Source: Okamejei kenojei
Lineage: Eukaryota
Assembly (NCBI GenBank): GCA_035221665.1
Contig: CM069162.1
Location: 25,544,001 to 25,608,000, forward strand
DNA: 64,000 nucleotides
Reading direction: 5' to 3'
The position numbers were made by a program. Below, one piece after another: positions 48,001-64,000 of this stretch (position 1 is its first letter; each line of letters starts with the position of its first letter).

Positions 48001-51000
48001 GGGGTTAAGGGGAGAAGGGATAGGAGGGAGAGATACATCAGCCATGAGTAAATGGCAGAGTCGACTTGTAGGGCCAAATGGCCTACTTCTGCTCCTATCA
48101 CTTATGACCTTTTAACCTTATGCACGGAGCTCTGTTTCCGCTGAGTCATATGGAGTTGGCAGTGGAGTCCTGTGATTCCACATGACTACTCAGAACCGAC
48201 AGCAGGGCAGAGGTGGCAAAGGACTGAAACACAATTGATTAACTTTAATATTTTTAATTCCTTCCAAATATTACTTCATTCACTAGAGGGCACCTTCGTT
48301 GGCATGGATGAATTGGGTAGAAAGATGTGTTTACATGATTATAACTATGATAATGACTTTAATTTCAACAATATTTTCAACTGTGTCTCCATCAAAAAAT
48401 AATTATAACTCAATTTGCATTGATAGCTGAACATCCATCAAGCACAAATGTCACGTCAAGATGGGATTCAACATCAGAAAGCAACCAAACGACAGAAGCA
48501 TCATCAATATCCAAACCTTCAAAAGAAGGAAACTCAGAATCATCTCAAACAGCAGAATCACACACAAGAGACGGCTCCACTCCAGAAACAACTCGAAAAA
48601 CCCAGCATTCATCACAAAACTCAACAAGCACAATACTTAATTCTTCAGAAAATGTGTCCGTTTCAGAACCTCATTTCATGACACAATTATCAGTCACGAC
48701 ACATTCCTCATCGGAATCATATTCCACATCAACAGAACCTTCATCAGAACCACATCCTACAATAGCAGCATCCACGATTGCCACATCCTCTCAGGCAACA
48801 ACTCCAAAAACCCAGCAATCTGCAAGAACTGAACTTTCATCACAATCCAATCCAAGCACAACCTCCACATCGACACAGGTTTCATCAAAAACTGAATCAC
48901 CCTCAGAAATCCATCAGACCACAGAAGTGCATTCAAGCTCCTTGTCCTCATCAAAAACACATCCAACAACATTACACGAATCATCATCAACAGAGCTTCC
49001 AACAACAGCATATCCAGCATTGACAACCGCTTCATCTGTTAGTGTGTCCCCATCTGAAACCCACCTAACAACAACACCACTATCATCGCCAACTCAGTCC
49101 TCAGCAGAGACCTATTCAACAACAGAAACATCCACAAACAAACCTTCATCAGAAACACATCCAACAACAGTGGAATCGCCAAGCACACAGCATACAACTC
49201 AAGCACATCAAAGCTCAACTGAAGTTTCATCAGCCACTGTGTCGCCAGTTGAATCCCACTCCGCAACTTCATCACTTTCATTGGTTACTGAATCCCCATC
49301 AGAAACACGTTCAACATCTGCACAAGCATCAGTGACAACTGAAACGTCATCAGAATCCCATCCAACTACAGAGGCATCACGAATCACAATGACCTCTTCA
49401 GAAAGACAGCCGACAGCACATGAATCATCAAGTACAGAGCAGTCAACACAAACTCATGGAACAACATCAGAAATTCCCTCAGAAAGTGCGTCATCATCAA
49501 AATCCCTCGCAACAGCAACAACGTCACCTTTGGTCACTGAGAGCTCAGCGGTAACTTATTCTCAATCATCGCAAATCACATCCTCCAACAAATCTGCAAT
49601 AGTCTCACATCCAACGACAGAAGAATCATCGATCACCGTCTCCTCACCTGAAGCACATCAGACAAATACACAGGAACCTTATACATCGACTTATCCAAAG
49701 ACAACACAAGCTTCAACAGAAACTATTTTGACAACCGAAACACATTTAACAACACCTATCTCAAAGGAAACGGAGCCTCCATCAGTAACCTACCCACGCA
49801 CAACAGAAGGCTTATCCACAACAGAATTTTCCTCACCAACACCGAATGGTAGACAGGCATCAGCAACCACATTGTCCACAGCTGAAACACGGTCAAAAAT
49901 ACAGGAATCAATAGGAACGGAGCATTCAACACAAACCATTGCAAGCACGACACAGATTTCTTCAGAGAGTGTGTCCGTTTCAGAACCACATTTCACAACG
50001 CAATTTTCAGGCACGACACATTCCTCATCGGAATCATATTCCACATCAGTGAAAGCTTCCTCAACAACAGAACCTTCATCACAATCACATCCTACCGAAG
50101 CAGCATCCACAATTGCCACATCCTCTCTGGAAACAACTCCAAAAACCCAGCAATCTTCAAGAACTGAACTTTCATCACAATCCAATCCAAACACAACCAA
50201 TTATTCGTCAGTCACCGAGTCCTCTTCAGAAACACATTTAACAACATCAAGTTTATCACAGCTAACCGAGTCCTCAACAGAAACATACTCCACATCGACA
50301 CAGGTTTCATCAAAATCTGAATCACCCTCAGAAATCCATCAGACCACAGAAGTGCCTTCAAGCTCCTTGTCCTCATCAAAAACACATCCAACAACATTAC
50401 ACGAATCATCATCAACAGAGCTGACAACAACAGCATATCCAGCATTGACAACCGCTTCATCTGTTAGTGTGTCCCCATCTGAAACCCACCTAACAACAAC
50501 ACCACTATCATCGCCAACTCAGTCCTCAGCAGAGACCTATCCAACAACACAAACATCCACAAACAAACCTTCATCAGAAACACATCCAACAACAGTGGAA
50601 TCGTCAAGCACACAGCATACAAATCAAGCACATCAAAGCTCAACTGTAGTTTCATCAGTCACTGTGTCGCCAGTTGAATCCCACTCCGCAACTTCATCAT
50701 TTTCATTGGTTACTGAATCCCCATCAGAAACACGTTCAACATCTGCACAAGCATCAGGGACAACTGAAACTTCATCGGAATCCCATCCAACTACAGAGGC
50801 ATCACGAATCACAATGTCCTCTTCAGAAAGACAGCCGACAGCACATGAATCATCAAGTACAGAGCAGTCAACACAAACTCATGGAACAACATCAGAAATT
50901 CCCTCAGAAAGTGCGTCATCATCAAAATCCCTCGCAACAGCAACAACGTCACCTTTGGTCACTGAGAGCTCAGCGGTAACTTATTCTCAATCATCGCAAA

Positions 51001-63000: not shown

Positions 63001-64000
63001 AACTTTCATCACAATCCAATCCAAACAAACCAATTATTCATCAGTCACCGAGTCCTCTTCAGAAACACATTTAACAACATCAAGCTTTATCACAGCTAAC
63101 TGAGTACTCAACAGAAACATACTCCACATCGACACAGGTTTCATCAAAAACTGAATCACCCTCAGAAATCCATCAGACCACAGAAGTGCCTTCAAGCTCC
63201 TTGTCCTCATCAAAAACACATCCAACAACATTACACGAATCATCATCAACAGAGCTTCCAACAACAGCATATCCAGCATTGACAACCGCTTCATCTGTTA
63301 GTGCGTCCCCATCTGAAACCCACCTAACAACAACACCACTATCATCGCCAACTCAGTTCTCAGCAGAGACCTATCCAACAACACAAACATCCACAAACAA
63401 ACCTTCATCAGAAAACACATCCAACAACAGTGGAATCGTCAAGCACACAGCATACAACTCAAGCACATCAAAGCTCAACTGAAGTTTCATCAGTCACTGT
63501 GTCGCCAGTTGAATCCCACTCCACAACCTCATCATTTTCATTGGTTACTGAATCCCCTTCAGAAACACGTTCAACATCTGCACAAGCATCAGTGACAACT
63601 GAAACTTCATCGGAATCCCATCCAACTACAGAGGCATCACGAATCACAATGTCCTCTTCAGAAAGACAGCCGAACAGCACATGAATCATCAAGTACAGCA
63701 GTCAACACAAACTCATGGAACAACATCAGAAATTCCCTCAGAAAGTGCGATATCATCAAAATCCCTCGCAACAGCAACAACGTCACCTTTGGTCACTGAG
63801 AGCTCAGCGGTAACTTATTCTCAATCATCGCAAATCACATCCTCCAACAAATCTGCAGTAGTCTCACATCCAACGACAGAAGAATCATCGATCACCGTTC
63901 CTCACCTGAAGCACAATCAGACAAATACACAGGAACCTTTTACATCGACTTATCCAAAGACGACACAAGCTTCAACAGAACCTATTTTGACAACAGAAAC

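What the first reader, a model, noticed from the sequence alone, without database searches (positions are those of the whole stretch)
48427..64000. Giant mucin-type exon made of near-identical 475-aa tandem repeats (>5000 aa in this window alone)
Seen: ~10.8 copies of a 1425-bp unit with very few substitutions, encoding S/T-dominated peptide rich in E, H and P, nearly lacking D, C and W, with N-glycan sequons (NTT, NYS, NKS, NSS). Known: most mammalian mucin VNTR units are ~8-170 aa. Inference: an unusually long-period, recently homogenised mucin domain giving a very extended glycoprotein, possibly elasmobranch-specific and likely length-polymorphic.
Basis: partly seen in the sequence, partly recalled or inferred. 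Interest (0 to 1): 0.8.

Follow-up and report, generated by a model that had tools for sequence, protein, structure and literature searches.

The report
Giant mucin-type repeat exon, skate-like genome
This is a real, very long serine/threonine-rich coding repeat of the mucin kind in a skate- or ray-like genome, with no detectable relatives, but as assembled its reading frame is broken many times, most likely by sequencing errors.

Summary
The tandem array is real. It has 10 full units of 1423-1428 bp (49575-63833), a partial unit before (48863-49574) and one cut by the window end, 98.0-99.7% identical. One frame of the 1425-bp unit is stop-free (475 codons; S 26.5%, T 22.5%, E 9.5%, P 6.5%, H 4%; no D, C or W). 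The other five frames hold 12-76 stops, and 0 of 1000 dinucleotide shuffles gave a stop-free frame.

The claimed continuous exon of >5000 aa is not there as assembled. The longest open frame is 48363-51590 (1076 codons), and 26 small indels break the frame in 8 of 10 units. They are nearly all 1 bp, private to one unit and in homopolymer runs, with no substitution-made stop in 4741 codons. I read them as long-read consensus errors.

The 475-aa unit is a higher-order repeat: about 17-aa S-x-S-E-T-H-x-T-T motifs within about 83-aa modules.

No Pfam family, solved structure or relative among 1.84 billion representatives was found. Flanking retroelements point to a batoid, not human. No signal-peptide, VWD, SEA or TM exon was found; the 3' end lies outside the window.

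Verdict: a lineage-specific orphan mucin-like gene, and a new member of a known kind.

The parts
48427..64000 (+). Candidate giant PTS (mucin-domain) exon, open at its 3' end because it runs off the window. The S/T-rich frame is interrupted 26 times by small indels within the ten full units. It is given as one part; the places of the breaks are not listed.
48425..48426 (+). AG of a candidate splice acceptor. An exon starting at 48427 would follow a phase-1 intron. There is no in-frame ATG between the upstream stop (frame opens at 48363) and 48427, so an upstream exon is required.
   Evidence: sequence read directly; no splice predictor or RNA data available
48429..48603 (+). Unique N-terminal stretch of the exon (58 codons). 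It is S/T/E-rich but contains D, W and R. Two N-X-S/T sequons (NVT, NQT) lie in it. Three more (NST, NSS, NVS) lie within 48604-48680, at the start of the next part, which makes five in the first ~85 residues.
   Evidence: translation; no match to the unit before 48604
48604..48862 (+). Old, diverged partial copy of the unit (82.9% to unit positions 348-625). It is an edge copy that escaped homogenisation.
   Evidence: phmmer of the unit against 48429-48862 gives E=2e-18 at library size
48863..49574 (+). Partial unit (unit positions 715-1427, 99.2%).
49575..63833 (+). Ten full units (U1-U10) of 1423-1428 bp. The undisturbed length is 1425 bp = 475 codons (U1, U7). There are 9 distinguishable unit types on shared substitutions.
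63834..64000 (+). Start of a further unit, cut by the end of the window (95.8% over 167 b).
48363..51590 (+). Longest uninterrupted stretch of the S/T frame as assembled (1076 codons, stop to stop). It covers the N-terminal stretch, the partial copies, U1 and part of U2.
50187..50933 (+). Three consecutive ~83-aa modules inside U1 (47% and 54% identity of the second and third to the first). Each carries about 17-aa S-x-S-E-T-[HY]-x-T-T motifs. This is the clearest view of the nested sub-repeat structure.
47488..47793 (+). CR1-like LINE reverse-transcriptase C-terminal fragment in the presumed upstream intron. It is a neighbour, not part of the gene.
   Evidence: 55% identity, E 5e-32 to the RT frame 41232-42434; no Pfam hit

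Best explanation
The region is the 5' part of a giant single exon that encodes the mucin (PTS-like) domain of a lineage-specific, orphan mucin-like glycoprotein in an elasmobranch (batoid-like) genome.

Shown: (1) a 1425-bp unit is repeated more than 10 times at 98-99.7% identity; (2) one frame is kept open and encodes 49% Ser+Thr with regular Glu/His/Pro and no Cys, Trp or Asp; (3) the unit is itself a higher-order repeat of about 83-aa modules made of about 17-aa S-x-S-E-T-H-x-T-T motifs; (4) an older, diverged copy sits at the array edge.

Inferred: the array grew by unequal crossing-over and gene conversion, first of the short motif, then of the module, then recently of the 475-aa block. 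The product enters the secretory pathway through an upstream signal-peptide exon that was not found. It is densely O-glycosylated on Ser/Thr and forms a long, stiff, negatively charged bottle-brush rod of more than 5000 residues that hydrates, lubricates or shields an epithelial surface. The 26 one-base indels that break the frame are consensus errors of a long-read assembly inside a repeat that could not be polished, not features of the gene.
For: Coding nature. The S/T frame has 0 stops, against 12-76 in the other five frames, and 0 of 1000 dinucleotide shuffles had a stop-free frame. Codon-position asymmetry is strong, with C at 59% of second positions and A at 53% of third positions. No stop was made by substitution in 4741 aligned codons of the ten units, although 6.25% of possible single-base changes would make one; P is about 0.015 for 65 variable columns.

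Mucin character. S+T is 49% and P 6.5%. No secondary structure is predicted, with mean pLDDT 37.6 and 467 of 475 residues below 50 (single sequence). No Pfam domain was found. This meets the repeat and >20% T+S criteria quoted from Pajic et al. (PMC9417175, passages read).

Indels as errors. 25 of 26 gap columns are private to one unit, against 31 of 65 substitution columns (Fisher p=8e-6). 18 of 26 lie in homopolymer runs of 3 or more, against 13% of bases (p=2e-10). 25 of 26 events are exactly 1 bp (P=4e-7 if half of natural small indels were 1 bp, a share I recall). Among shared variants the ratio is 1 indel to 34 substitutions; among private ones it is 25 to 31. U1 and U7 have the same undisturbed 1425-bp length.

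Natural array rather than assembly duplication. There are 9 distinct unit types on 34 shared substitution columns, and a degenerate edge copy at 83%.

Gene layout. An AG acceptor lies at 48425-48426, there is no in-frame ATG upstream, and the intron would be phase 1. Human membrane mucins likewise put the whole PTS domain in one giant exon 2, up to 32,428 bp in MUC12 (PMC9578598, passages read).

Host. The best named relatives of the flanking LINE RT are Leucoraja erinacea 86%, Mobula hypostoma 81% and Hypanus sabinus 73%.
Against: As it stands in the window, the frame is broken in 8 of 10 units, and the first stop follows after 1076 codons. No reads were available, so the error reading is inference.

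The stretch before the first break is free of indels (P about 0.009 at the array's mean rate). A real truncating frameshift with decay downstream would also predict this.

No signal-peptide exon was found. 4 weak candidates came from a heuristic scan of 48 kb, none convincing. No promoter, no transcript evidence and no C-terminal domain were seen.

The synonymous share of variable columns (23 of 65, 35%) is only slightly above the random expectation of 27%, so purifying selection on the residues themselves is weak. This is usual for PTS domains but does not prove function.

Pro at 6.5% is low for a classical PTS domain. No O-glycosylation predictor was available.
Confidence: 0.58

Rival explanations
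1. The frameshifts are real. The gene is either a recently dead pseudogene or encodes a much shorter product of about 1050 residues from this exon, ending at the first out-of-frame stop. The remaining roughly 12 kb of repeats would be untranslated and kept similar to the translated units only by gene conversion.
For: The frame is broken in 8 of 10 units as assembled. The part before the first break is indel-free (P about 0.009), as expected if only that part is under selection. The nearby CR1-like LINE also has its second ORF in three frames, so frame breaks in this window need not all be errors.
Against: 25 of 26 indels are private, 1 bp and homopolymer-biased. No substitution-made stop occurs in the eight 'untranslated' units. 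Shared variants show 1 indel to 34 substitutions. Natural decay should give mixed indel sizes, some indels spread among units by the same homogenisation that spreads substitutions, and some stops.
Confidence: 0.2
2. It is the central PTS exon of a gel-forming mucin (MUC2/MUC5/MUC6/MUC19 family). MUC6 is the nearest case: it has long 169-aa repeats, and two paralogs are reported in a chimaera.
For: Gel-forming mucins have one huge PTS exon (PMC9712336, passages read). MUC6 has 169-aa units and MUC5B has 528-aa super-repeats. Muc6, Muc2 and Muc5 exist in cartilaginous fish (PMC4948705, passages read; shark skin proteomics PMC10707392).
Against: There is no Cys at all in the unit, so no CysD domains in more than 15 kb. 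No VWD, C8 or TIL family appeared in the 30 of 186 + strand open frames (50 aa or more) tested upstream, which were chosen for nearness or Cys content. None appeared in the 10 frames tested. The unit has no sequence match to anything in the protein libraries, which hold annotated elasmobranch proteomes. The test is incomplete: short exons and the other 156 frames were not scanned.
Confidence: 0.1
3. It is a non-coding macrosatellite whose open frame and S/T-rich translation are by-products of A+C-rich, strand-skewed composition.
For: Strand skew is strong (GC skew about -0.4, AT skew about +0.3). There are no homologues, no transcript evidence and many frame breaks.
Against: 0 of 1000 dinucleotide-preserving shuffles gave a stop-free frame (the minimum was 2 stops, the mean of the best frame 7.7), while the real unit has 0 in one frame and 12-13 in the other two + frames. 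Base use by codon position is strongly periodic. All internal sub-periods are multiples of 3: 102, 117, 147, 150, 198, 201, 246, 249 and 297. No stops arise by substitution.
Confidence: 0.03
4. The copy number is an assembly artefact: a few real units were over-expanded or mis-joined by the assembler.
For: Long near-identical repeats are a classic site of mis-assembly, and the consensus inside the array is visibly noisy (26 indels). Mucin repeat exons are known to be mis-sized in assemblies (PMC9578598 and PMC9712336, passages read).
Against: There are 9 distinguishable unit types on shared substitution columns alone, so at least nine different copies contributed. The exact number and order remain unverified, and the true array could equally be longer, since it runs off the window.
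Confidence: 0.09

Closest known systems
Human MUC5B central exon (four 528-residue super-repeats in one 10,713-bp exon)
   Same: The mucin domain is encoded by one giant exon, and a long-period higher-order unit of similar size (528 against 475 aa) is built from shorter S/T-rich repeats (PMC6780288; PMC9712336).
   Different: MUC5B units include Cys-rich CysD subdomains and unique stretches, there are only four, and it belongs to the VWD-bearing gel-forming family. Here there is no Cys, there are at least 10.6 copies at 98-99.7% identity, no VWD exon was found, and there is no sequence similarity.
Human MUC6 PTS exon (27 repeats of 169 aa)
   Same: A long, well-conserved repeat unit without CysD interruptions in a single exon, with copy number differing between assemblies (PMC9712336).
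   Different: The unit here is 2.8 times longer. No sequence match was found, and the N- and C-terminal domains that define MUC6 were not seen (upstream) or not testable (downstream).
[quoted passage not shown]
   Same: The PTS domain is encoded by one giant exon 2 that follows a short first exon. MUC3A/B have a basic 17-residue S/T-rich repeat that contains Glu and His, the same basic period as found here. Exons reach 32 kb (PMC9578598).
   Different: Membership needs SEA, TM and cytoplasmic exons downstream, which lie outside the window. The human repeats are short perfect units, not 475-aa blocks. No significant sequence similarity was found. The shared 17-residue period may be coincidence.
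Orphan, lineage-specific mucins (MUC7, rodent Muc10 and others; Pajic et al. 2022)
   Same: Defined by function rather than descent: exonic T/S-rich tandem repeats, no homology to other mucins, rapid lineage-specific gain of repeats (PMC9417175). This is the class under which I file the finding.
   Different: Those described are small genes with short units (for example 13 aa in Muc10) and known expression. This one is giant, has three nested repeat levels, and has no expression or flanking-exon evidence.
Mucin-like region of pneumovirus attachment glycoprotein G (PF00802)
   Same: The language-model feature search placed fragments of it nearest (score 0.79). Both are S/T/P-rich, heavily O-glycosylated, disordered stalks.
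   Different: The score is below the tool's 0.9 level, where a third of shuffled proteins score as high. There is no Pfam PF00802 match and no sequence hit. The resemblance is one of composition only; there is no sign of viral origin.
Filaggrin-type giant exons (recalled, not checked in any call)
   Same: Ten or more near-identical units of about 324 aa inside a single exon, with copy-number polymorphism. This shows that very long intra-exonic periods arise in vertebrates.
   Different: It is an S100-fused epidermal protein, not S/T-rich and not secreted. It is an analogy of repeat dynamics only.

Membership tests
Mucin / mucin-like protein (functional class; criteria as quoted from Pajic et al., PMC9417175) | T+S richness above 20% of the peptide | tested here: met
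   S 26.5% + T 22.5% = 49% in the 475-aa unit.
Mucin / mucin-like protein (functional class) | Tandem repeats contained within a coding domain of the gene | tested here: met
   10.6 units of 1425 bp lie in one open-frame-bearing stretch, with nested 17-aa and 83-aa repeats. The frame is interrupted as assembled.
Mucin / mucin-like protein (functional class) | PTS domain called by PTSpred at its recommended thresholds | not tested
   PTSpred was not available and I did not see its thresholds. Composition is S+T 49%, P 6.5%.
Mucin / mucin-like protein (functional class) | Predicted O-glycosylation sites above 4% of length; actual dense O-glycosylation | not testable with these tools
   No O-glycosylation predictor or glycoproteomic data. 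There are 233 Ser/Thr per 475-aa unit.
Mucin / mucin-like protein (functional class) | Entry into the secretory pathway (signal peptide) | tested here: inconclusive
   There is no in-frame ATG before the exon. The heuristic scan of 48 kb upstream gave 4 weak candidates, none convincing. The first exon may lie outside the window.
Mucin / mucin-like protein (functional class) | Transcribed and translated | not testable with these tools
   No expression data. Indirect support only: the frame is kept free of substitution stops.
Gel-forming mucins (MUC2/5AC/5B/6/19) | N-terminal VWD-C8-TIL assemblies upstream of the PTS exon | tested here: inconclusive
   0 Pfam families in 30 of 186 + strand open frames of 50 aa or more. 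The one search hits are all retroelement domains. Short exons and 156 frames were not scanned.
Gel-forming mucins (MUC2/5AC/5B/6/19) | CysD domains interspersed in the PTS region (MUC2, MUC5AC, MUC5B) | tested here: not met
   No cysteine in the unit and no Pfam domain in 1054 aa.
Gel-forming mucins (MUC2/5AC/5B/6/19) | C-terminal VWC/CK dimerisation domains | not testable with these tools
   The array runs off the window at 64000.
Membrane mucins (MUC3 cluster type) | SEA domain, transmembrane helix and cytoplasmic tail downstream of the PTS exon | not testable with these tools
   This lies downstream of the window.
Membrane mucins (MUC3 cluster type) | Sequence relationship to family members | tested here: not met
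   0 hits at E<=0.001 in 1.84 billion representatives and among 8000 longer candidates. The controls show that phmmer could have seen even weak relatives. PTS regions are poorly conserved, so this does not exclude orthology through the other exons.
Pneumovirus glycoprotein G (PF00802) | Match to the family profile | tested here: not met
   0 Pfam families for 48429-51590. The Atlas score of 0.79 is below the 0.9 lead level.

The most novel reading that the evidence does not exclude
The gene encodes the so far unidentified mucin-like core of an elasmobranch-specific secretion, for instance the keratan-sulfate-bearing 'mucin-like conjugate' of the ampullae of Lorenzini gel, or a batoid skin or egg-case mucus polymer. 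In that reading the strictly spaced Glu-x-His motifs (15 per 475-aa unit) are functional. They would give a glycan scaffold with regularly placed titratable or metal-binding groups, which could contribute to proton handling, buffering or ion-dependent gelation. Nothing here links the locus to any tissue. The reading rests only on the host clade, the absence of relatives, the motif regularity, and reviews stating that the gel's keratan sulfate sits on a mucin-like conjugate whose identity is not given (PMC10987296 and PMC8379299, passages read).
Probability: 0.05. Interest if true: 0.75.

Novelty: new member of a known kind. Interest (0 to 1): 0.38.

Why it matters
If the gene is intact and expressed, it adds a cartilaginous-fish example to the growing case that mucins arise repeatedly and independently by repeat amplification. 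It also shows that process at three nested scales in one locus (17 aa, then 83 aa, then 475 aa). It would be among the longest-period, most homogeneous mucin repeats described. That would make it a useful natural model for how unequal crossing-over builds higher-order coding repeats, and a candidate for unidentified mucin-like polymers of elasmobranch secretions.

It is also a practical warning. Such exons are invisible to annotation when long-read consensus errors break the frame, so elasmobranch mucin inventories based on gene models are probably incomplete.

Tried and rejected
1. TRF on 40000-64000. Its period limit of 500 misses the 1425-bp unit and only shows an 18-bp mini-repeat recurring once per unit. 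I replaced it with blastn and autocorrelation.
2. Protein searches with the exon's own product, all empty: 'longer' word-indexed search (0 of 8000 candidates), exhaustive phmmer of the unit against 1.84 billion representatives (0), PDB sequences at E<=1 (0) and Pfam (0).
3. I worried that HMMER's bias filters might explain the blanks. A local control showed the unit still finds the 83%-DNA-identity edge copy at E=2e-18, and one half of the unit finds the other at E=5e-7, both at the big library's size. I therefore take the blanks as real.
4. ESM Atlas. The best score, 0.79, went to fragments of a viral mucin-like glycoprotein. I rejected this as composition only.
5. Structure prediction of one unit. 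It is fully low-confidence with no secondary structure, so I ran no fold search, because a low-confidence model gives meaningless matches.
6. Search for upstream exons. The signal-peptide and donor heuristic gave 4 weak candidates. Pfam on 30 of 186 + strand frames gave nothing.
7. Rfam and tRNA scans of the whole window: 0 matches.
8. A non-coding satellite was rejected by the shuffle test.
9. Literature searches for shark or ray mucin repeat genes found only gel-forming mucins (Muc2/5/6) by proteomics or prediction. They found no description of a long-period elasmobranch PTS gene. These four searches are the basis for 'not seen in print', and subscription journals and supplements were not covered.

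Not used:
- the third homologous-protein search and the second Atlas call, because the exhaustive search had already answered the question;
- Genome contigs, phages, plasmids and E. coli collections, which hold no vertebrate DNA;
- Metagenome contigs and viral contigs, which were closed.

No other elasmobranch genome could therefore be searched for a syntenic array.
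Full report
**1. What is in the sequence**

The window has no N. From about 48.4 kb to its end the composition changes sharply: GC skew is about -0.4 and AT skew about +0.3.

A unit taken at 51000-52426 matches the window as follows:
- a diverged piece at 48604-48863 (82.9%);
- a partial unit at 48863-49574 (99.2%);
- ten full units between 49575 and 63833;
- the first 167 bases of another unit, cut at 64000.

Autocorrelation peaks at lags 1425 and 1427. TRF could not report the array because its period limit is 500. Pairwise identity of the ten full units is 98.0-99.7%, and the closest pairs are U1/U5 (99.7%) and U2/U3/U4 (99.5-99.6%).

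**2. Is it coding?**

Unit U1 (49575-50999) is 475 codons with no stop in one frame. The other two + frames have 13 and 12 stops, and the minus frames 76, 13 and 13. None of 1000 dinucleotide-preserving shuffles had a stop-free + frame; the best frame averaged 7.7 stops, with a minimum of 2.

Base use is strongly periodic: C is 59% of second codon positions and A is 53% of third positions. All strong internal lags are multiples of three.

The peptide is S 26.5, T 22.5, E 9.5, P 6.5, Q 5.5, A 5.3, H 4.0 %, with no D, C or W, and it has three N-X-S/T sequons. Five more sequons lie in the first ~85 residues of the exon (read).

AlphaFold2 on the single sequence predicts no secondary structure, with mean pLDDT 37.6. 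Pfam finds nothing in 1054 residues. This is what a mucin (PTS-like) domain looks like. It meets the repeat and T+S criteria that Pajic et al. use for new mucins (PMC9417175, passages). O-glycosylation itself could not be predicted here.

**3. The frame is not continuous**

The claim of one exon of more than 5000 aa fails as the sequence stands.
- The longest open stretch of the S/T frame is 48363-51590, 1076 codons.
- Unit lengths are 1425, 1427, 1427, 1426, 1428, 1428, 1425, 1423, 1426 and 1424.
- Against U1 there are 26 indel events in 8 of the 10 units: 25 of one base and one of two bases, 18 insertions and 8 deletions. I do not list their places.

Four features say they are consensus errors rather than mutations.
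- (i) 25 of 26 gap columns are private to a single unit, against 31 of 65 substitution columns (Fisher p=8e-6). Among variants shared by two or more units the ratio is 1 indel to 34 substitutions.
- (ii) 18 of 26 lie in homopolymer runs of three or more, where only 13% of bases lie (p=2e-10).
- (iii) Practically all are exactly one base (P=4e-7 if about half of natural small indels are 1 bp, a share I recall rather than computed).
- (iv) Not one of 4741 aligned codons has become a stop by substitution, although 6.25% of possible changes would do so (P about 0.015 for 65 variable columns).

The interior of a 15-kb array of 99%-identical units is where read-based polishing fails.

Against this reading, the stretch before the first break is indel-free (P about 0.009). 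A genuine truncating frameshift with decay behind it would also predict that. Without reads I cannot settle it. I put the error reading at roughly 0.7 and the whole best explanation at 0.58.

**4. Anatomy of the unit**

The 475-aa unit is not a primary repeat.
- The motif E-x-[H/Y/R], in the context S-x-S-E-T-H-x-T-T, occurs 15 times, with spacings of 15-17, 33, 49-50 and 66 residues.
- Protein autocorrelation peaks at 16, 17, 33, 50 and 82-83 residues, at 0.21-0.24 against 0.147 expected.
- Three consecutive ~83-aa modules (50187-50933) align at 47% and 54% identity to the first. The first 204 residues of the unit align more loosely, at 38-42%.
- The unit's first half finds its second half at E=5e-7 even at a library size of 1.8 billion.

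So there are three nested levels: about 17 aa, about 83 aa and 475 aa. Only the last was amplified recently. The 83%-identical copy at the 5' edge is the usual degenerate edge of a homogenised array. On the 34 shared substitution columns alone the ten units fall into 9 types, so the copies are real and distinguishable. The exact number and order are unverified.

**5. Gene context**

An AG at 48425-48426 precedes 48427, and the frame has no ATG between its opening at 48363 and the exon. The exon must therefore be spliced to an upstream exon, with a phase-1 intron.

I did not find that exon. A heuristic scan for Met, a hydrophobic core and a phase-1 donor gave four weak candidates in 48 kb. Pfam on 30 of the 186 + strand open frames of 50 aa or more, chosen for nearness or cysteine content, gave no family.

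The 3' end and all C-terminal exons lie beyond the window. Rfam and tRNA scans were empty.

The upstream 48 kb is retroelement-rich:
- a CR1-like LINE with an esterase-type ORF1;
- a DIRS-like element;
- an AT-rich LINE remnant;
- a CR1-like RT fragment only about 630 b before the exon.

The RT's best named relatives are Leucoraja erinacea (86%), Mobula hypostoma (81%), Hypanus sabinus (73%), then sharks at 52-62%. I therefore take the contig for a batoid-like elasmobranch, not human.

**6. Relatives**

The exon's product has none that I could find.
- 0 of 8000 longer candidates.
- 0 of 1.84 billion representatives at E<=0.001.
- 0 PDB sequences at E<=1.
- The libraries do contain annotated skate, ray and shark proteomes.
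- The controls show the method would have seen even weak relatives.

The likeliest reasons are rapid PTS divergence and failure to annotate such exons. The Atlas feature search put fragments of a pneumovirus attachment glycoprotein nearest, at 0.79. That is below the tool's lead level and reflects the shared mucin-like composition only; Pfam's profile for that family does not match.

**7. Comparison with what is known**

MUC5B, however, has four 528-residue super-repeats in one 10.7-kb exon (PMC6780288, passage). Membrane mucins carry the whole PTS domain in one exon of up to 32 kb, with a 17-residue basic repeat in MUC3A/B (PMC9578598, passages).

The present array works like these and shares the 17-residue basic period. 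It differs in three ways: it has no cysteine subdomains, at least ten near-identical long units, and no sequence kinship.

Membership in the gel-forming or the membrane family cannot be claimed. CysD is tested and absent, VWD is not found in an incomplete test, and SEA/TM/CK are untestable. It fits the functional class of orphan, lineage-specific mucins (PMC9417175).

Four literature searches found only Muc2/5/6-type mucins reported for cartilaginous fish (PMC4948705; PMC10707392). They found no long-period PTS gene. Supplements and subscription journals were not covered.

**8. Mechanism**

Shown: a repeat hierarchy, an open frame preserved against stops, and extreme S/T content without folded domains.

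Inferred:
- secretion and dense O-glycosylation giving an extended polyanionic rod (E 9.5% against K+R 3.6%);
- growth and homogenisation by unequal crossing-over or gene conversion;
- likely length polymorphism.

Speculative: the regularly spaced Glu-x-His pairs act as titratable or metal-binding sites.

The boldest reading is that this is the unidentified mucin-like core of an elasmobranch secretion, such as the keratan-sulfate gel of the ampullae of Lorenzini (PMC10987296 and PMC8379299, passages). Nothing excludes it and nothing beyond host clade and novelty supports it; I give it 0.05.

**9. Verdict**

This is a new member of a known kind: an orphan mucin-like gene with an unusually long higher-order coding repeat, in a noisy assembly region. 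Interest is moderate at 0.38.

Unchecked:
- reads and transcripts;
- the downstream exons;

Noticed in passing
window 38486-42434 (+): CR1-like LINE. ORF1 carries a GDSL-esterase domain (PF13472, E 1.9e-13), followed by an endonuclease (PF03372) and a reverse transcriptase (PF00078, E 1.1e-20). The second ORF lies in three overlapping open frames, so it has two frame changes. The strand is strongly G-rich (GC skew +0.37 to +0.42). The RT is 86% identical to a Leucoraja erinacea protein.
   Followed up: partly
window ~31507-35326 (-): DIRS-like retroelement. It has RT (PF00078, E 9.4e-20), a weak RNase H match, a tyrosine-recombinase N-terminal SAM-like domain (PF02899, E 8.7e-9) and a 412-aa frame without any Pfam family.
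   Followed up: partly
window ~26000-30060 (-): AT-rich (GC 0.29-0.32) LINE remnant with an endonuclease-RT type domain (PF14529, E 9.8e-5) and several further open frames of 100-190 aa.
   Followed up: partly
window 4076-4694 (+) and 36375-37141 (-): Two stretches whose translations look alike by eye, possibly ORF1 of the same LINE family in opposite orientations. They were not aligned or tested.
   Followed up: no
window 18726-19291 (+): Pro/Ser/Leu-rich simple sequence open in three + frames (159, 185 and 93 codons), in a segment with GC skew -0.30. Probably low-complexity DNA, not a gene.
   Followed up: no
window 47488-47793 (+): CR1-like RT C-terminal fragment (55% identity, E 5e-32 to 41232-42434), about 630 b upstream of the mucin exon and in the same orientation. 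A similar fragment lies at 43122-43562 (-) by eye.
   Followed up: yes
hits P0022 and P0045 (public proteins, not in the window): Gene models named 'P-selectin glycoprotein ligand 1 isoform X2' (Hypanus sabinus) and 'adenylate kinase 2' (Stegostoma tigrinum) carry this LINE's RT domain at 73% and 60% identity. Most likely transposon sequence was captured in automatic gene models. Two hits labelled as enterobacteria (Proteus, Klebsiella) at 64-68% look like contaminated records.
   Followed up: no
window 51139-62589, once per unit: An 18-bp mini-repeat (2.3 copies, 82% matches) recurs at the same place in 8 of the units. It is a small internal duplication inside the 1425-bp unit.
   Followed up: no
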